Positions 3,520-47,504 of a DNA stretch of 64,000 nucleotides are shown piece after piece. The notes under the pieces were generated by a model. The model was given only the letters and a program-made list of their open reading frames with translations. It searched no databases and was not told the origin of the DNA. The stretch is from IMG/VR virus record IMGVR_UViG_3300043540_000321, positions 131,212-195,211 of that record, one strand, 5' to 3'. The position numbers and the translations under genes were made by a program. Position 1 is the first letter of the stretch; every line of letters begins with the position of its first letter. The DNA is from a virus.

Positions 3520-3532
3520 CTACCCAAGTCGC

Positions 3533-3565
3533 GAGGGGCGTGCTTTTCACGTCCCTCCTTTTTTT
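3533..3565 (+). terminator. Intrinsic terminator
   Basis: GAGGGGCGTG/CACGTCCCTC stem plus T7. Confidence 0.8.
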
Positions 3566-3717
3566 AATAAACTCAGTTCGAACCGTTCGTTTATTAAAAC
3601 TGATGTATCCTTGAGAGGGCTTGTAGGATGTCTGGATTTGGACTAGCATCTTCAGAGAACCGCAAGGGATTATTAAAACCAGTAGGTGTGAAGCATTTGT
3701 ATTAAAGGAAAAATCTT

Positions 3718-4467
3718 ATGTCGAGCATTGCTGAAACTGAAACTGGATTTGAACATGCCGGTGAGAAAAATAGCCTGGCAGTCATGCGTCCCAATCCACC
3801 TCAACCAATTGCTCACGAAGCCGCTGGAGTAGACCCCACTGAGGAGAAACCAGCGATCGAGGAGTCCCTGGAGTCTGTGGAGACAGGAGACGGCGTAGAT
3901 GTCAGCGGTATTGAAGCTCAGATGATCCACGGATGGGTCATGTCTGCCGTAGAGAAATACGGCATGATCGGCATGGACTTAGCGGTCTATAAGATCAACG
4001 GCACACGCATTCAAAACAACTACGCAGTGGACCCCAAGAACTCGAACATGATTGTTGTTCGGGTCAAACTTCCCTTTGTAAGTCTCCAATACGAAGAGGT
4101 GACGAAGGGAGATGGGGAAAACAGCGTCACGAAAAGTGTTCTGTCCAGTTTCGTCTTACCAGCAGAAAGGCTAAACCGTCCGGAGAGAGGTGACCAGATG
4201 ATCTGGGTCGCAAACTCATGCTCACTGATTATTGTGTTGCCCGATGAAAGTCGAATCCATCCGATCATCAGGAATGGAGAGCACGCCCGTCTGAGAAAGG
4301 GACAGGGTGAGTATTTGCACACCATTTACAACTTCAAGGAGGCAAAGGTTGCCTCAGTGCGGTGTAAGAAAGTGACTCCTAAGCCTGTTCTAAAACCAAG
4401 GTCAAACTTCACTAAAGGAGCAGACGAATGTTCAAGCCAATTATTATTGGCGTCGTCGTCTGTCTGA
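3718..4467 (+). CDS. Hypothetical protein (249 aa)
   Basis: Long ORF, acidic N-terminus, no recognised motif. Confidence 0.7.
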   Translation: MSSIAETETGFEHAGEKNSLAVMRPNPPQPIAHEAAGVDPTEEKPAIEESLESVETGDGVDVSGIEAQMIHGWVMSAVEKYGMIGMDLAVYKINGTRIQNNYAVDPKNSNMIVVRVKLPFVSLQYEEVTKGDGENSVTKSVLSSFVLPAERLNRPERGDQMIWVANSCSLIIVLPDESRIHPIIRNGEHARLRKGQGEYLHTIYNFKEAKVASVRCKKVTPKPVLKPRSNFTKGADECSSQLLLASSSV

Positions 4468-4829
4468 TGCTCATCGGCGTCGGACAGAGAGGGGCTAAAA
4501 AGAATGTCTCCCTCTGCGACGCCGAATCAGCCCAGGAGGGCACCTTCATCTTTGATGCTCAGGCTGGAAATGCGAACAATGGAGTAGTCACCCTTTCAAA
4601 CGGGGGCTGCTCCATTTCTGTATTTACCCAGATTGATGTCAAAGGTATTCATGGAAAGGCAACCGCTATCAAATCAACGAATGGGAGTTACGAACTGCAA
4701 AGTTGGAACCCTGTCGATGACATCGAGTGGGTGAGAGTCAATCGGATTGTTCCGAAGGGCGGGCACACCTACGGTCAAGATGATAAAGGAGCCTGGTTCA
4801 GAGTCAATTCGGCTGACCTGGCACAATAG
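4428..4829 (+). CDS. Putative secreted or membrane-anchored protein
   Basis: AAGGAG SD; hydrophobic N-terminus MFKPIIIGVVVCLMLIGVG. Confidence 0.65.
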   Translation: MFKPIIIGVVVCLMLIGVGQRGAKKNVSLCDAESAQEGTFIFDAQAGNANNGVVTLSNGGCSISVFTQIDVKGIHGKATAIKSTNGSYELQSWNPVDDIEWVRVNRIVPKGGHTYGQDDKGAWFRVNSADLAQ

Positions 4830-5025
4830 CAAGGCGATCGCGGTATCATAAGTCAATCCAACAAGGATGATGCCGCGGAGTCAGCCGATGTTGGATTTTA
4901 TGGCGAGCCAGACAATCTGGTGGCCGTTTCGGGCGGAAGGCTGGAGCTTGCTCTCCCTTCCGTCCGTTACAAAGTTTCAAGAGCGCCCCGTACCCAGCCG
5001 GACAGGATAGGTTGAAGTCCTCCAA
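4810..5025 (+). ncRNA. Candidate structured RNA with a pseudoknot
   Basis: Helices 4810-4817/4880-4887, 4839-4849/4867-4877, loop-to-downstream 4855-4863/4889-4897, and 4931-4940/4956-4965 with an inner CUUG tetraloop. Confidence 0.55.
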
Positions 5026-5074
5026 AATATTGCTCTAGTCATTAACCATTTACTGATTTTCTAGGAGAAAGACA

Positions 5075-6175
5075 ATGCTTACACTACTCGCGGGAGGAGT
5101 GCTTGGCACCGCCGTGGGGTGGTTGTTCGCACGTATCCCTGGACTCTCTTCAATGCACGCGATGTGGCTGTCCATGATCATTGGATTAATAAATCCTGCA
5201 GCCAGTGTCGCAGCAGTAGCATCGAGCTACATCGTTTCAACATTCCTGGGCTCAGCTAAAGAAGCACTGACCCCAATGTTGTCGGGCGATATTAATGCAG
5301 TAGCGGCTGGAGACCCAGCGGCGGCTGTGTACCTAGACACAAAAGATTTCGCTCAGAACATTTTCTGGGGGAAATTCGCAGGTCTGGTTGCTGGTTTAAT
5401 GGCTGGATGTTTCATGTGGTGGCTGATGCCTGGAAGCATAGGGATGCTAGTGGCGATCGCACTCATGGCGATCAGTACCCGCAGGCTCGGAAACAAATGG
5501 GTGAACCTCGCGTTCATCCTGGTCAGTCAGCTATTCTTCTGGGTAGCTCCAATAGTCGGAATCAGTCAACCCATATTTGCTCTGGTTACAAGTTTTTACA
5601 TGATTCCATCGTGCCTGGGCGCTCATTTTACAGAGAACATAGGCTATGGAACAGACAAGGTCTCCTTCAAGAACGAAGGAACGAAAGGGTTCTTCAGTGC
5701 AATCCTATCGCTGGTATCGCCCGGTATGAGTCCAGGGTTCCTGGTGCTCAGCACGGCGAAGAAGACCAACCCCGCTATTCAGGTCGCGGTGGCTGGAGCC
5801 AGTATGTTCTTAGAAGGGTTCGCCATCTCGGCTGCCCTCAATGGAAGAACCGTTCATAAGGCTGTCCTCGGAATCGAGGTGGGAGAGCAAAATATCACCA
5901 CGCCATTGGCAATTATGCTATTGGTGCTGGCGATGCTCTGTCAAAGATGGCTACCCCAGACCTACACACATTATCTGGCGATAGTCCGAAACAAACGCAA
6001 CTTCGAAATGGCGAAGCATATCTCACTCGTAGCAGCTATTGGCACATGTGCTGTCTGTGCAGGCTGGCTTAGTGTGGTGCTAATTCCAGTTGGGCTGCTG
6101 CTCAATAGTCTAATTAAAGAGACTGGAACGCCTGGCACCGTACGATCGATGTTATTCGCCGGGGCTTTGCTATAG
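5075..6175 (+). CDS. Polytopic membrane protein, TctA (tripartite tricarboxylate transporter permease)-like
   Basis: About 10 or more hydrophobic segments; G..G.L...IPGL near the N-terminus and a second SPGMSPG motif mid-protein, resembling the internally duplicated TctA motifs. Confidence 0.5.
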   Translation: MLTLLAGGVLGTAVGWLFARIPGLSSMHAMWLSMIIGLINPAASVAAVASSYIVSTFLGSAKEALTPMLSGDINAVAAGDPAAAVYLDTKDFAQNIFWGKFAGLVAGLMAGCFMWWLMPGSIGMLVAIALMAISTRRLGNKWVNLAFILVSQLFFWVAPIVGISQPIFALVTSFYMIPSCLGAHFTENIGYGTDKVSFKNEGTKGFFSAILSLVSPGMSPGFLVLSTAKKTNPAIQVAVAGASMFLEGFAISAALNGRTVHKAVLGIEVGEQNITTPLAIMLLVLAMLCQRWLPQTYTHYLAIVRNKRNFEMAKHISLVAAIGTCAVCAGWLSVVLIPVGLLLNSLIKETGTPGTVRSMLFAGALL

Positions 6176-6514
6176 TAGGAACAGGTTTTTCGTAGTGAAA
6201 ACCTTCTTTTTTTGTAATTTACAGAAGGGCTGGTACTCCAGCCCTTCTTTGTGCCTTATACTGAAAGGGCTTATTGGGTTGTGTGCCTTACTAAAAAGGA
6301 TGGAGAAATTCTCCGTCCTTTTTTTATCAATAACAGGACGTAAAACCGAACACCGTAACGCAGCCCACCTAGAATAGAGAAGTGATTGGGAATGGGAGCT
6401 TTCGGTCTCCTTTTTTAATGCCCACAGGACGCGATCGCAGATAATGTCAGCACCCCGCACTGAAGTGACGGGGCTTCTCGGAGGTTCCGGTGAAAAATCC
6501 TTAGAGGTATTTTT

Positions 6515-12893: not shown

Positions 12894-13932
12894 AGTTATT
12901 TGGCTTCTTATAGAAACGGAGTTCCGAGGCCCTTACATTATTGAGATGACAAAGGAAGCCATTCTCAGAGTTCAAGAGTTGGCCGCTCATGTCTTGTCTA
13001 TCAGAGGAATGTGGTCCGTCAAGATTGACCTCAGCACCATAGGTGGGATCACCGTTTACAAGGTCGGCGACAACGAACAAGTTCTCGCCCAGTTTGACCA
13101 CAAAAATTACACCGTCGTATCTGAAGAGTCTTCCAGACCCAAAGAGGCGTTTTTCGTCTCTCTATGTGTCGCTGAGGTCTTAGCAGGTATGGAAGAGGCA
13201 ATGGTCATTCAGTTCGCCGCGGATGGTGGAGATGATGAGACCGAAGAAATGTTTACCATCCCTAATTTATTGGAGGAGTTTGAACGAATTTAGCCTGCAC
13301 TCCCCCATCCTCGCCAGCAGGTGGGGGAGCTTCATCGGTATGTGTTTAGGAGAATTAGACGGGAAGCCCAGCGCTGTACCGCTTCGGTCAGCGTCGGGTA
13401 AGTCACCGCGTGAGAGCAAGGAGAAATAATGCTATCTCAAAATCTAATCAAGACTATTTGTACGGAGATGACAGGAGGCTCTTCCTGTTATTTCATCCAG
13501 GGGCACAACCTGGCGATCTGTCATCTGGAGATGGATGAAGCGGACTGGGTCTTCATTGATAAAGTGCGGAGTTCGAGTGTCGATCGCATGTTCGACATGC
13601 GAAACCAACGGTTATTAAAGTACGAGCCAGCGGTTAGATGGCTGCGCCCAGTTCTCGAAGAGTACTTCCAAATGAGAGACCTGAGCTGGAGCGACGAAGA
13701 CCAGCAGAACGCCCTCCGAGAAGGGTGGGGGCTCTTCCACGTAGACGACGTCTACCCTGAGATCCAGAAGTTCGACGAGGCTTGCGTCTTTGAATCTGAC
13801 GCCAGCGCGGTCGCTCACATTATGGGTGCTGTTAAGTTCTCTGATGATTGTCCGGAGTACTACAGAAAAGCCTGGGCGATTCACAGCCTATTCGCCGCAC
13901 ATTCCCTCAACAGAAATCCGATCCAGGTATGA
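12886..13932 (+). other. Hypothetical genes
   Basis: ORFs 12886-13293 and 13429-13932. Confidence 0.65.
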
Positions 13933-22617: not shown

Positions 22618-22707
22618 GCTATAATGGACACAATGTCCTAGAGTTATTCAAACTCAACACGCTAAACCCTGGGTTTACAGACCCAGGGTTTTTTAAGGAG
22701 AAATTTT

Positions 22708-23082
22708 ATGGACTTTTTACCGGAAGAGCTGACAAAAGAACCCATCGTCGACCTGATTAGACTCTTCGAGTCTCGCCATCAAGCGAGCATCGACTCCTTC
22801 TGGAGAATCAATAGACAATGCAGAGTTAATGCAGGTCGCGATGTTGCTGTTGAAATTTTCTATAGCAACACTACTCGGTATGTTCAAATTTACGAACGGG
22901 GTAGTGATGAGTATTTCCTCTACGCTCTGTTACAAGGTGGCATTCGGATTTTAGGAGCGAAAGCAAAGTCTATAGATTTCGTCATCAATCTGTTAGAGAC
23001 AGCGGTTGACCACTTCGACCACCGTTATCAGTTCGTCGATCCAGACCGTCCGGTCGTTGACTCTGCCGTTGGAGTGTCTTAA
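22708..23082 (+). CDS. Hypothetical protein
   Basis: AAGGAG SD, 124 aa. Confidence 0.65.
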   Translation: MDFLPEELTKEPIVDLIRLFESRHQASIDSFWRINRQCRVNAGRDVAVEIFYSNTTRYVQIYERGSDEYFLYALLQGGIRILGAKAKSIDFVINLLETAVDHFDHRYQFVDPDRPVVDSAVGVS

Positions 23083-45199: not shown

Positions 45200-47304
45200 G
45201 TGCCCAAGCCGCCCGACACCATCATGGAAACTAATTACGAACTTGTAATCGAAGCGACTTTAACAACACAGCAAGTGCCCGTCGCAATTCGAGGACTACC
45301 CGAACCCTTTAGGGTGTCTCAAGCCTATCCGTCCGAGCGACGAACCGGAAAGCTCTGTTACTGTTCAGAGTTGCACCTACCGGAGCCGGACAGGAGTATT
45401 ATCACAGCTCTCTTCAACGATGCTGGAAAGTCCTGGGTTCCGTTATGGTCTATTGGGATCAACACATTCCGACCGGAGGTACAGATCCTATTCGCCCGGC
45501 TAAGGTCGGAGGGGTTTGATTACGTCGTCTTTCTCCCCTCGCTCCAGACCTATTCTGATTTCACAGCCTTTCCCGAAGGCGAGCCGCTCAATTGCGAAGA
45601 AAAGACAAGGATCTGCGAACGCCTGATGCAACAGGAACAATCCTACGATTGAGAGGACACCTTCAATCTGCATCAAGATGGATTACCGAGACGAGTTCCT
45701 GAATTTGTTACACGACCCAGACGAGTGTGTCGACCGTATGAATGAGGCGATCGACAATCGGGATGTCGAGGACTTCCTCAGTCTGTTTGACGACATTAGT
45801 GAGGTGAACGGATGCACCTTCCCTCAACTTACTGAAGAAGGTGTCCGAGGACTCTTTGAATTTGTTAATGACCTGAACCTCCTGGGCATGACCTTGATGA
45901 TCTTGCCTTATGAGAGAACGGTCGTGATCGATGCGCTAGAATAACTTAAGCCGAATAGGCACGCTAAAAATACACCTCGGAAGGGCACCTCTACAGGTGC
46001 CTTTTGTCTATGCCAGATACTTACGTCTATAATGGCGTCCGCCGTTACGCAGCGGACTGGGCGCGAGAGCTAAACATTTCAGTCCAAGCGTTCCACTACC
46101 GGTGGAAGCAATTTGAGATGGGTAATAAGGAACTGGATCAAGTGTTCAAACCCAATCCGGTTCGAGACCGTCTCCTCTACCCAGTAGAGAAGGATTTACT
46201 AGCGGCCGTCGCGGAAGGAAACACCATTCAGGCCGCCGCAGAGATTGTAGGAGTGACCTATAACGTAGCGCGGCACTGCCTGGAGGAAGCTGAGAAGAGA
46301 CTGACCCATCCCGTGGCGATCGCGATCCCCACGGCATGGGTATATTGACTACACACTATTTGAACTTGGAGATTAATAAATGCCCGAAGAATTCAAAATC
46401 AAGATTGGAAGTTCCGTCAAATGGACTTCTCAGGTAGCCGGCAACTATACAGAAAAAGAAGGGATTGTGCGAGCGTATCTACCGTCTAGGTCGGGTGGAG
46501 CTGCAGTACTTCAGTTCTTCAAAACCTACTACGTGGGCGACATCACCGATAAGAAACTTCAGAAGTTGATGAAGAACTTTCAAGGGAACTCGGTGTACGA
46601 TCGCTACCTGGTAGAGGTATCTCGAATTAATAAAAGGACTGGAGCCATTTTGGAATCAGCCTGGTACGCACCTAATAAAGGTGTGATTGAATCCCAGAAC
46701 AATGTTTGAACGGTTCGAACTATGCCGCAAGTAACTGTGCCCGATTGGGCGATCGAACAATTAATTGAGTTCGCTGACGAGCGGATCGATGAAGGGGCCG
46801 CAGAAGAAATTCTGACCAGTTTGATTACCGAAGGCGAGGTTAGACTGGACAATAATGCGCGAAACCTCATTATGGATGTCGACTGGGCGATCCTTTTGAG
46901 TGAGGTGAACAAATACATAGTCGAGTGTTAGTATAAGTCGGAAGACGTTCCGGTGTTTTTATATGACGACCAAGTTCTATGCGATCGCGTTACAAGTTGT
47001 AGCCAACCAGCTCTCTCAGCTCGACCTGATCTTCGTGCCTAGCCAAGACTCAGAAGATATGTCTGCATCAGACCTCGCTTTTGCAAGGGCGAAAGATTTT
47101 GTGAACAAGAGATACGGTTACAACGCCTTCATCAACAGTTTCACAATGGCTGAGCTGACCCCGGACTTTATTTTCTCTGCTGCTAACCAGATAACAGCGG
47201 AGCAGCAATCGAGTGAGAGTGAGAGCAGCGGCGAGAGTAAAAACGGGGCACGCTCTGCTCTCGAACTGGTCCTTGAATCTAAATCTGCCCCACCTTTGGA
47301 GTAA
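45200..47304 (+). other. Run of hypothetical genes
   Basis: ORFs 45200-45652, 45678-45944 (weak addiction-antidote-like), 46004-46348 (two HTH-like segments), 46380-46709, 46722-46931 and 46963-47304. Confidence 0.6.
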
Positions 47305-47306
47305 TT

Positions 47307-47504
47307 ATGGATAAGCCAATCGAACTGACTTTAGAACAGCAATTTACACTTGCATCATTCGAGACCGAAGTCAAAAAGATGTCGGAACAGCAGGCCAAGG
47401 ATTTCTTGGTTAAGCTCCACCAGCAAATGGTCATTAGGGAGGAGTATTACAAGCACTTCCTCCGCCATTCTTGGGGATTGGAGCCTGGACCTCGATTCAA
47501 GTAA
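47307..47504 (+). CDS. nblA: Phycobilisome degradation protein NblA
   Basis: PIELTLEQQF...KMSEQQAKDFLVKLHQQMVIREEYYKHFLRHSWGL matches the NblA pattern. Confidence 0.95.
   Translation: MDKPIELTLEQQFTLASFETEVKKMSEQQAKDFLVKLHQQMVIREEYYKHFLRHSWGLEPGPRFK

What the first reader, a model, noticed from the sequence alone, without database searches (positions are those of the whole stretch)
4810..5025. Pseudoknotted ~200-nt structured RNA candidate ahead of the TctA-like gene
The sequence shows P1 CGGCTGAC/GTCAGCCG (8 bp) enclosing an 11-bp helix (4839-4849/4867-4877). The loop AATCCAACA of that helix pairs perfectly with TGTTGGATT (4889-4897) just after P1, forming a 9-bp pseudoknot. A small hairpin follows, then a 10-bp helix capped by GAG-CUUG-CTC. 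CGGACAGGA (~4999-5007) can alternatively pair with the 3' strand of that helix, which is switch-like. I do not recognise it as any riboswitch or ribozyme class I know. Its position suggests a cis-regulator of a transporter-like gene or an independent phage ncRNA.
Basis: partly seen in the sequence, partly recalled or inferred. Interest (0 to 1): 0.7.

Follow-up and report, generated by a model that had tools for sequence, protein, structure and literature searches.

The report
Orphan folded spacer inside phage operon

Summary
P1 is 9 bp rather than 8 (4809-17/4880-88). P2 is 11 bp, the loop-to-tail pairing is 9 bp and perfect, and the P3 and P4 hairpins are present. The + strand of 4805-5010 folds with z = -3.9 (0 of 400 shuffles); the - strand gives -1.3. 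At 56% GC the block exceeds every comparable intergenic window of this 195-kb phage. It ends sharply at about 5010, ahead of a 34%-GC unstructured leader carrying the ribosome-binding site.

No known family matches (Rfam, ARAGORN). No homologue was found in the phage's own genome, its distant relatives, 490 cyanobacterial genomes, IMG/VR or JGI metagenomes. All four neighbouring proteins are singletons among 15 billion, so covariation cannot be tested. Homologues of the downstream membrane protein exist (29% identity), but their upstream regions are unrelated. That protein shows no TctA signal. The proposed switch pairing is weak (-11.8 against -22.4 kcal/mol).

The spacer lies inside a three-gene unit that has classical terminators only at its outer ends. 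My best reading, at 0.4, is a lineage-specific structured intercistronic mRNA element.

One new lead: the upstream gene's UAG lies 9 nt before P2, the frame stays open for 61 codons, and a ribosome on that stop would melt P1. That leaves a textbook H-type pseudoknot, so a readthrough signal is possible but unproven.

The parts
4428..4829 (+). Upstream ORF of 133 aa with an N-terminal hydrophobic segment and TAG stop at 4827-4829. Its last codons contain the P1 5' strand.
   Evidence: A weak full-length homologue (139 aa) in the JSC-12 prophage ends at the same position.
4809..4817 (+). P1 5' strand, pairing with 4880-4888. It lies inside the coding sequence.
   Evidence: pair probability 0.5-0.9.
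4834..4841 (.). HIP1 octamer GCGATCGC, overlapping the base of P2. It explains all the short BLAST hits in cyanobacterial DNA.
4839..4877 (+). P2 hairpin: 11 bp (4839-49/4867-77, one G-U) with a 17-nt loop.
   Evidence: probability about 1.0.
4855..4863 (+). Pseudoknot 5' strand (AAUCCAACA) in the P2 loop.
   Evidence: Duplex energy -11.3 kcal/mol against an opening cost of 4.7.
4880..4897 (+). Continuous 18-nt strand made of the P1 3' strand (4880-88) and the pseudoknot 3' strand (4889-97).
4902..4925 (+). P3 hairpin (3 + 6 bp, CAA loop).
   Evidence: -13.6 kcal/mol.
4930..4966 (+). P4 hairpin (11 bp plus 4 inner pairs, CUUG loop). No U-tract follows it.
   Evidence: probability about 1.0; -23.9 kcal/mol; not called as a terminator.
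4830..5015 (+). In-frame open continuation of the upstream ORF past its TAG: 61 sense codons, then TGA at 5013-15. Coding status is unresolved.
   Evidence: The codon-usage likelihood ratio is about 0.9. No homologue was found.
5011..5074 (+). AU-rich (34% GC), unstructured leader with Shine-Dalgarno AGGAG at 5063-67 ahead of ATG 5075.
   Evidence: z +1.0.
5075..6175 (+). Downstream gene: a 366-aa polytopic membrane protein of a small uncharacterised family. No TctA signal.
3533..3566 (+). Classical intrinsic terminator upstream of the three-gene unit.
6176..6420 (+). Cluster of hairpin-plus-U-tract terminators after the 366-aa gene.

Best explanation
Window 4809-5008 is a lineage-specific, GC-rich block of stable RNA helices in the sense transcript. 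It fills the gap between the second gene (133 aa) and third gene (366 aa membrane protein) of a three-gene phage operon.

It most likely works at the mRNA level without sensing a ligand. The stacked hairpins P1/P2, P3 and P4, with an optional loop-to-tail pseudoknot, sit directly behind the upstream cistron. An unstructured AU-rich leader carrying the ribosome-binding site follows them. In that position they would act as a barrier or processing landmark that sets the relative stability and translation of the two cistrons. This is the role played by intercistronic stem-loops in other polycistronic mRNAs, and by the hairpins in this phage's own hairpin-plus-hammerhead cassettes.

Shown: the helices exist, beat shuffles, favour the + strand, form a GC outlier with a sharp 3' boundary, and lack terminator U-tracts. 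Terminators flank the three-gene unit.

Inferred: co-transcription, formation of the pseudoknot, and the stabilising or segmenting function.
For: - Structure is significant and strand-biased: z = -3.9 on + and -1.3 on - for 4805-5010, and both sub-domains reach z < -4.3 on +. There are 4 G-U pairs and no A-C.
- Composition: 56% GC against a 45.6% mean for intergenic gaps. None of 160 windows of 180 nt in other gaps reaches it. GC drops to 34% in the last 64 nt.
- No U-tract follows any helix here, whereas the neighbouring gaps at 3520-3717 and 6176-6514 carry textbook hairpin-plus-U-run terminators. No sigma-70-like + strand promoter lies in the gap. Readthrough transcription from the upstream genes is therefore the simplest reading.
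- The same phage places strong hairpins between small genes of its early operon.
- Relatives also have hairpin-containing, moderately structured but non-homologous spacers before the homologous membrane-protein gene, with z from -2.3 to -2.8.
- The small ORFs in other frames score as non-coding: -0.09 and -0.08 against a coding mean of +0.13.
Against: - There is only one sequence, so no conservation or covariation evidence exists.
- There are no transcript data, so co-transcription and any processing are inferred.
- By whole-gap z-score (-2.9) it ranks only about 18th of about 50 strand-tests among this phage's long gaps, so strong folding is not unusual in this genome.
- A 200-nt, four-helix, pseudoknot-capable block is more elaborate than a simple stabiliser needs.
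- The spacer sits at a junction where relatives carry extra genes, so it could be a rearrangement relic.
Confidence: 0.4

Rival explanations
1. It is a non-functional relic. The spacer would be left over from gene loss or rearrangement at a variable junction, and its helices would be leftovers (for example of palindromic or HIP1-rich sequence) with no role.
For: - In the JSC-12 prophage, the weak homologue of the 133-aa gene and the membrane-protein gene are 5.7 kb apart, with four other genes between them including nblA. Gene content at this junction therefore differs between relatives.
- The element is unique, with no copy in its own genome.
- The frame after the TAG is open and its first half has coding-like codon usage, +0.18. 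That would fit a decaying coding remnant.
- A HIP1 site lies inside P2.
Against: - z = -3.9 with a clear + strand bias, and four independent strong helices.
- GC is above every other intergenic window, whereas decaying sequence would be expected to drift towards the intergenic mean.
- No translated similarity to any gene of the relatives.
Confidence: 0.25
2. It is a genuinely new cis-regulatory RNA: a riboswitch aptamer, a protein-binding operator or a self-cleaving ribozyme, using the P1/P2/pseudoknot fold.
For: - A multi-helix GC-rich fold with a 9-bp pseudoknot that is energetically favourable before loop penalties: -11.3 kcal/mol against a 4.7 opening cost.
- The position is 5' of a membrane-protein gene.
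- This phage demonstrably uses ribozymes that Rfam fails to score, so the Rfam negative is weak.
Against: - No Rfam hit even at E <= 10.
- By eye, no hammerhead core and no fit to HDV-like dimensions.
- No expression platform.
- Not associated with the gene family in five relatives.
- Singleton in all collections searched.
Confidence: 0.15
3. It is a recoding signal. A ribosome stopping on UAG 4827-29 covers and melts the P1 5' strand. P2 (11 bp) and the 9-bp loop-tail helix then form a classical H-type pseudoknot 9 nt downstream. This promotes readthrough, possibly by the phage's own tRNA with anticodon UUA, into a 61-codon extension ending at TGA 5013-15.
For: - The frame stays open for 61 codons after the TAG; the chance of that is about (61/64)^62, roughly 0.05.
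- Spacer and loop lengths (9 nt spacer; L1 5 nt, L2 3 nt, L3 11 nt) follow directly from the coordinates. They match the 6-9 nt spacer rule for viral stimulatory pseudoknots (PMC3835772).
- The extension ends exactly where GC and structure drop.
- A tRNA with anticodon UUA lies 6 kb away. That ochre suppressors also read UAG by wobble is textbook knowledge and was not tested here.
Against: - The homologue in JSC-12 ends at the TAG position.
- The extension has no homologue. It is not recognised as protein-like by the language model, with recognition 1232 against a 2300 benchmark.
- Its codon usage is uninformative overall (LR 0.9) and non-coding-like in the second half.
- To my knowledge no pseudoknot-stimulated readthrough is known in bacteria.
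- A 5% coincidence is easy to find after the fact.
Confidence: 0.08
4. It contains a small protein gene: the 47-aa + strand ORF 4867-5010 (in-frame ATGs at 4867, 4870, 4888 and 4900; GGAG lies 7 nt before ATG 4888), or the 59-aa - strand ORF 4846-5025.
For: The ORFs exist, and a GGAG sits at a good distance from ATG 4888.
Against: - Codon scores of -0.09 and -0.08 equal the non-coding mean.
- No homologue and no Pfam hit.
- The start codon and SD are buried in P1 and P2.
- The - strand ORF has a TTG start and no SD, and all neighbouring genes are on the + strand.
Confidence: 0.04
5. It is a DNA-level site (origin, recombination or packaging site), or an independently transcribed small RNA.
For: The inverted repeats would also form in single-stranded DNA. 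The - strand sub-domains still fold at z = -2.9 to -3.3.
Against: - The strand asymmetry favours the sense RNA.
- No direct repeats or iterons, no integrase or replication gene next to it, and no + strand promoter or terminator.
- No similarity to the ends of the phage's TnpB elements.
Confidence: 0.05

Closest known systems
Intercistronic stabilising or segmenting stem-loops in polycistronic mRNAs (for example Rhodobacter puf, E. coli malE-malF REP hairpins; from general knowledge, not checked here)
   Same: Stable hairpins without U-tracts, directly behind an upstream cistron inside an operon and followed by the next gene's ribosome-binding site. No ligand is involved.
   Different: This element is much larger (about 200 nt, four helices, a possible pseudoknot). 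It is unique in sequence, and nothing is known about its transcripts.
Hairpin-plus-hammerhead cassettes of this same phage (L002 361-441, 659-745, 1288-1372; earlier notes e1-5807150 and e1-5807151)
   Same: Strong hairpin(s) between small genes of a phage operon, just before the next Shine-Dalgarno site, on the sense strand.
   Different: There is no hammerhead core here (no CUGANGA/GAAA arrangement, and no GCUGGG/CCCAGC stem I at the right place). There is also no sequence similarity.
Viral H-type recoding pseudoknots (MuLV gag-pol UAG readthrough, coronavirus-type frameshift pseudoknots; PMC3835772)
   Same: A stop codon, then a 9-nt spacer, then stem 1 of 11 bp. The loop pairs with downstream sequence (9 bp) with workable loop lengths, and the frame beyond the stop is open.
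   Different: The setting is a bacterial virus, where no such signal is known. The extension is not conserved and not clearly coding. P1 competes with this fold when no ribosome is present.
HDV-like ribozyme P1.1 topology (from memory)
   Same: The loop of a hairpin enclosed by P1 pairs with the nucleotides immediately 3' of P1, giving a nested pseudoknot.
   Different: The dimensions are far off: 11-bp stem, 17-nt loop and 9-bp pairing here, against a 3-bp P3 and 2-bp P1.1. No P2 partner for the 21-nt joining strand was found, and there is no Rfam hit.
Phage T4 gene 32 translational operator (from memory)
   Same: A 5' pseudoknot followed by a long unstructured AU-rich leader running up to the ribosome-binding site.
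   Different: The downstream gene here is a membrane protein, not a single-strand nucleic-acid-binding autoregulator. There is no sequence relation.

Membership tests
Any described RNA family (Rfam 15: riboswitches, ribozymes, sRNAs, tRNA-like, tmRNA) | Scores against a curated covariance model | tested here: not met
   There is no hit in the gap at gathering thresholds or at E <= 10. ARAGORN finds nothing. Caveat: Rfam also misses this phage's own divergent hammerheads.
Riboswitch (generic) | Aptamer conserved across homologous or functionally related genes, with covarying helices | tested here: not met
   Five homologous gene copies in relatives have unrelated leaders. No homologue turned up in the phage's own genome, the JSC-12 genome, 90 + 401 cyanobacterial genomes, IMG/VR or JGI metagenomes.
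Riboswitch (generic) | Expression platform: an intrinsic terminator or an SD-sequestering helix that competes with the aptamer | tested here: not met
   No hairpin-plus-U-tract lies in 4830-5074. The SD sits in an unstructured 34%-GC leader. The alternative pairing is worth -11.8 against -22.4 kcal/mol.
Hammerhead ribozyme (including this phage's variants) | Three-stem junction with a CUGANGA...GAAA core and an NUH cleavage site | tested here: not met
   Reading by eye against the phage's three cassettes finds no core arrangement. There is no Rfam hit.
Self-cleaving ribozyme (any class) | Site-specific self-cleavage | not testable with these tools
   This needs an in vitro transcription and cleavage assay.
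Intrinsic (factor-independent) terminator | GC-rich hairpin immediately followed by a U-run | tested here: not met
   P4 is followed by GUUACAAAGUUUCAAG, and the scan calls none in the gap. Neighbouring gaps do have them.
Recoding (readthrough) H-type pseudoknot | Stop codon 5-9 nt upstream of stem 1, with sterically workable loop lengths | tested here: met
   TAG is at 4827-29 and P2 starts at 4839, a 9-nt spacer. L1 is 5 nt, L2 3 nt and L3 11 nt once P1 is melted. The spacer rule comes from PMC3835772.
Recoding (readthrough) H-type pseudoknot | The in-frame extension is a real, conserved coding sequence | tested here: inconclusive
   The frame is open for 61 codons. However, the codon likelihood ratio is 0.9, there is no homologue, and the JSC-12 homologue ends at the stop.
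Recoding (readthrough) H-type pseudoknot | Measured readthrough that depends on the pseudoknot | not testable with these tools
   This needs a reporter assay.
TctA / tripartite tricarboxylate transporter (downstream gene) | Match to Pfam PF01970 or NCBIfam TctA models | tested here: not met
   None of 25 family members hits TctA in Pfam at E <= 0.1. The window protein gives no hit at E <= 10. The PDB profile search is empty. The best fold match is the YS1/OPT transporter at Z 9.4, rmsd 7.5, 261 aligned residues, which is inconclusive for a helical protein. NCBIfam was not searched.

The most novel reading that the evidence does not exclude
A bacteriophage uses a eukaryotic-virus-style recoding signal. 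The UAG of the 133-aa gene is followed 9 nt later by an H-type pseudoknot that forms only once the terminating ribosome has melted P1. Together with the phage's own UUA-anticodon suppressor tRNA, this yields a fraction of protein carrying a 61-residue C-terminal extension.
Probability: 0.07. Interest if true: 0.8.

Novelty: new member of a known kind. Interest (0 to 1): 0.3.

Why it matters
If the fold is functional, it would be an orphan structured RNA from a thermophilic cyanophage lineage that already uses unusual ribozymes and encodes its own RNA polymerases. It would then be a good place to look for new RNA biology.

The stop-codon-plus-pseudoknot geometry would also give the phage's so far purposeless suppressor tRNA a concrete, testable target.

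As things stand it is a single sequence with no comparative support. Its practical value is as a well-defined candidate for one inexpensive round of probing and reporter assays. It also serves as a caution: 'structured, with a pseudoknot on paper' does not make a riboswitch.

Tried and rejected
- **Rfam and ARAGORN.** Rfam at gathering thresholds and at E <= 10 gave only a chance P10 hit inside the upstream ORF. ARAGORN found nothing.
- **Cultured phages.** Nucleotide and translated searches found nothing.
- **Single-protein locus searches.** Both flanking proteins and the helicase found nothing in IMG/VR or GTDB genomes.
- **Route that worked for neighbours.** Helicase homologues led to contigs and then to the homologous membrane gene in L003. 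A profile search gave 36 family members, and four more loci were fetched. Their leaders are unrelated to this spacer.
- **Degenerate nblA.** Rejected. The phage's own nblA is at window 47286-47480, and nothing in the gap resembles it.
- **IS200/605 end or orphan TnpB guide RNA.** Rejected. The phage has TnpB genes, but the gap resembles no other part of the genome.
- **Single-sequence covariance model R1.** It finds only itself in the phage's genome and nothing in the JSC-12 genome. The single hit among 90 genomes of that order lacks P2 and P4, so it is chance.
- **Pattern scans.** The pseudoknot arms and P4 arms in IMG/VR gave 158 chance hairpins, none matching R1 beyond the pattern itself. 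Two specific patterns in JGI metagenomes gave zero hits.
- **Population variants.** None are available. All four neighbouring proteins are one-member clusters on one contig.
- **Interrupted longer gene.** Not supported, because the homologue ends at the TAG.
- **Small ORFs.** Not supported.
- **HDV-like fold and hammerhead.** Checked by eye and rejected.
- **Not available here.** Pseudoknot-aware folding software was not on hand. The pseudoknot energetics are a duplex-minus-opening-cost estimate only.

Full report
**Setting.** The window is bases 131212-195211 of a 195-kb IMG/VR phage record. Earlier notes of this scan describe it as a hot-spring cyanophage. The finding lies in the 245-nt gap between a 133-aa ORF (4428-4829, +) and a 366-aa ORF (5075-6175, +), and it overlaps the last 20 nt of the upstream ORF.

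**Observation.**
- P1 is one pair longer than stated, 4809-17/4880-88.
- P2 is 4839-49/4867-77 with one G-U.
- The loop segment 4855-63 is perfectly complementary to 4889-97.
- P3 (4902-25) and P4 (4930-66) are stable hairpins of -13.6 and -23.9 kcal/mol.

In the nested ensemble P1, P2 and P4 have pair probabilities of about 0.9 to 1.0. The structure exceeds chance. Two perfect 9-bp stems within 120 nt occur in 1.8% of shuffles. The block 4805-5010 has z = -3.9, with 0 of 400 shuffles as good. The reverse strand gives only -1.3, partly because 4 of the 44 pairs are G-U.

The pseudoknot helix is worth -11.3 kcal/mol as a duplex, against 4.7 kcal/mol to free both strands. It is plausible, but loop penalties are not included.

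Two parts of the description are weaker than written. The 'switch' pairing of 4999-5007 is half as stable as P4. Also, the P1 and pseudoknot 3' strands are contiguous, so all three helices can coexist only if P2 folds back along P1. That last point is my geometric reasoning and was not computed.

**What distinguishes the block.** It has 56% GC, against a mean of 45.6% for intergenic gaps and 50.5% for coding sequence. No 180-nt window in any other gap reaches that value. At about 5010 GC falls to 34%, and the last 108 nt are unstructured, z = +1.0.

Neighbouring gaps (3520-3717, 6176-6514, 1961-2171) contain textbook hairpin-plus-U-run terminators. This gap has none, and no sigma-70-like + strand promoter either. 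The simplest reading is a three-gene unit (3718-4467, 4428-4829, 5075-6175), bounded by terminators, with the structured block inside it.

Measured over the whole gap, the z-score of -2.9 ranks only about 18th of about 50 strand-tests among this phage's long gaps. Strong folding as such is common in this genome.

**Known families.** Rfam gives nothing in the gap at gathering thresholds or at E <= 10, and ARAGORN gives nothing. This negative is weaker than it looks, because Rfam also fails to score the phage's own hammerhead cassettes at E <= 0.1. Reading the gap by eye against those cassettes shows no hammerhead core. The loop-to-3'-of-P1 pairing has the topology of HDV P1.1, but the dimensions are far off.

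**Search for relatives.** No nucleotide or protein relatives of the gap or its flanking genes were found among cultured phages or by single-protein locus searches.

The nearby helicase did lead to relatives at 40-58% identity, which gave a 220-kb JGI contig. On that contig a syntenic 377-aa protein is a full-length homologue of the 366-aa protein, at 29% identity and E = 2e-32. An exhaustive profile search found only 36 family representatives. Loci were fetched for four more.

In two of these loci the gene follows nblA. Their upstream regions (92-460 nt) are unrelated to this spacer by inspection, by sensitive blastn and by a covariance model of P1-P4. They mostly consist of a terminator or palindromic hairpin plus a Shine-Dalgarno site, with z from 0 to -2.8.

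The model finds only itself in the phage's own genome and nothing in the JSC-12 genome. One marginal hit among 90 genomes of that order lacks P2 and P4. Pattern scans of IMG/VR returned only chance hairpins, and two specific patterns returned nothing from JGI metagenomes.

The four neighbouring proteins are each a one-member cluster on one contig among about 15 billion proteins.

**The downstream gene.** No Pfam family, TctA included, matches any of 25 family members, and there is no PDB sequence match. The AlphaFold model is confident (pLDDT 87, pTM 0.88). Foldseek finds nothing. The best representative-wide match is the YS1/OPT transporter at Z 9.4, rmsd 7.5, with 261 residues aligned. That is suggestive of a transporter-like helical fold but below the level that is safe for helical proteins. 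The ligand guesses tied to 'TctA' have no basis.

**A new lead.** The frame of the upstream ORF stays open for 61 codons past its TAG, to TGA 5013-15. That end coincides with the end of the GC-rich block. The TAG lies 9 nt before P2.

A ribosome on that stop covers the P1 5' strand. P1 is then melted, and P2 plus the loop-tail helix become a classical H-type pseudoknot with loops of 5, 3 and 11 nt. This matches the spacer and layout of viral recoding pseudoknots (PMC3835772). The phage also carries a tRNA with anticodon UUA.

Against this:
- An open frame of that length has about a 5% chance.
- The extension's codon usage is uninformative overall, LR 0.9, with a coding-like first half and a non-coding-like second half.
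- It has no homologue and low protein-likeness.
- The JSC-12 homologue of the 133-aa protein ends at the TAG position.

I keep it as a low-probability, high-interest rival.

**Other rivals.**
- The 47-aa and 59-aa ORFs in other frames score as non-coding and have no relatives.
- A relic of rearrangement is plausible, because relatives carry 5.7 kb of other genes between the two flanking genes. The GC excess and the strand-biased folding argue for maintained structure.
- A DNA-level site or a stand-alone sRNA has nothing specific in its favour.

My best reading, at 0.4, is a lineage-specific structured intercistronic mRNA element that shapes the stability or translation of the two cistrons. I file it as a new member of a known kind and score interest at 0.3. 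It is a clean candidate for probing and reporter assays, but a singleton with no comparative evidence.

Noticed in passing
window 5075-6175; L006 3573-5131; L007 3538-5137: The 366-aa membrane protein belongs to a small uncharacterised family: 36 representatives in 1.8 billion, no Pfam hit, and a confident AF2 model. In the JSC-12 prophage and on a 191-kb contig its gene directly follows the phycobilisome-degradation gene nblA. In this phage nblA sits elsewhere, at about 47286-47480.
   Followed up: partly
L002 361-441, 659-745, 1288-1372 (genome 120361-121372): Rfam 15 does not score this phage's three hammerhead cassettes, even at E <= 0.1. Rfam-negative results in this genome are therefore weak evidence against ribozymes.
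   Followed up: no
genome 3623-4204 and 928-1234; window 22618-22984 and 1961-2171: Several other long intergenic gaps fold far better than the one studied, with z from -5 to -8.5, often on both strands. They were not examined.
   Followed up: no
window 13294-13428; genome 115413-115523: These are the two short intergenic gaps with the highest GC, 58%. They are possible further structured RNAs or missed small genes.
   Followed up: no
window 6176-6420: Three to four consecutive hairpin-plus-U-run terminators follow the membrane-protein gene. That is unusually heavy termination.
   Followed up: no
L003 19676-19745: Direct repeats of AAACCTGACCAGGTCTGGTGT, each an internal palindrome, lie about 230 nt upstream of the homologous membrane gene in the 220-kb relative. 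A TnpB gene sits next to them. They may be an operator or iteron-like site.
   Followed up: no
L010 1757-1805: Tandem TACCCATTAG / TACCCAG-like units lie directly upstream of another family member.
   Followed up: no
window 4780-4807 (- strand): A sigma-70-like promoter match (TTGACT, 16-nt spacer, TATCAT; 10 of 12) points antisense into the 133-aa ORF, at the left edge of the element. It may be chance.
   Followed up: no
genome 185470-185667, 23382-23576, 181061-181237, 162456-162635: There are four TnpB/Cas12f-like zinc-ribbon matches in the phage, two of them above the Pfam cut-off.
   Followed up: no
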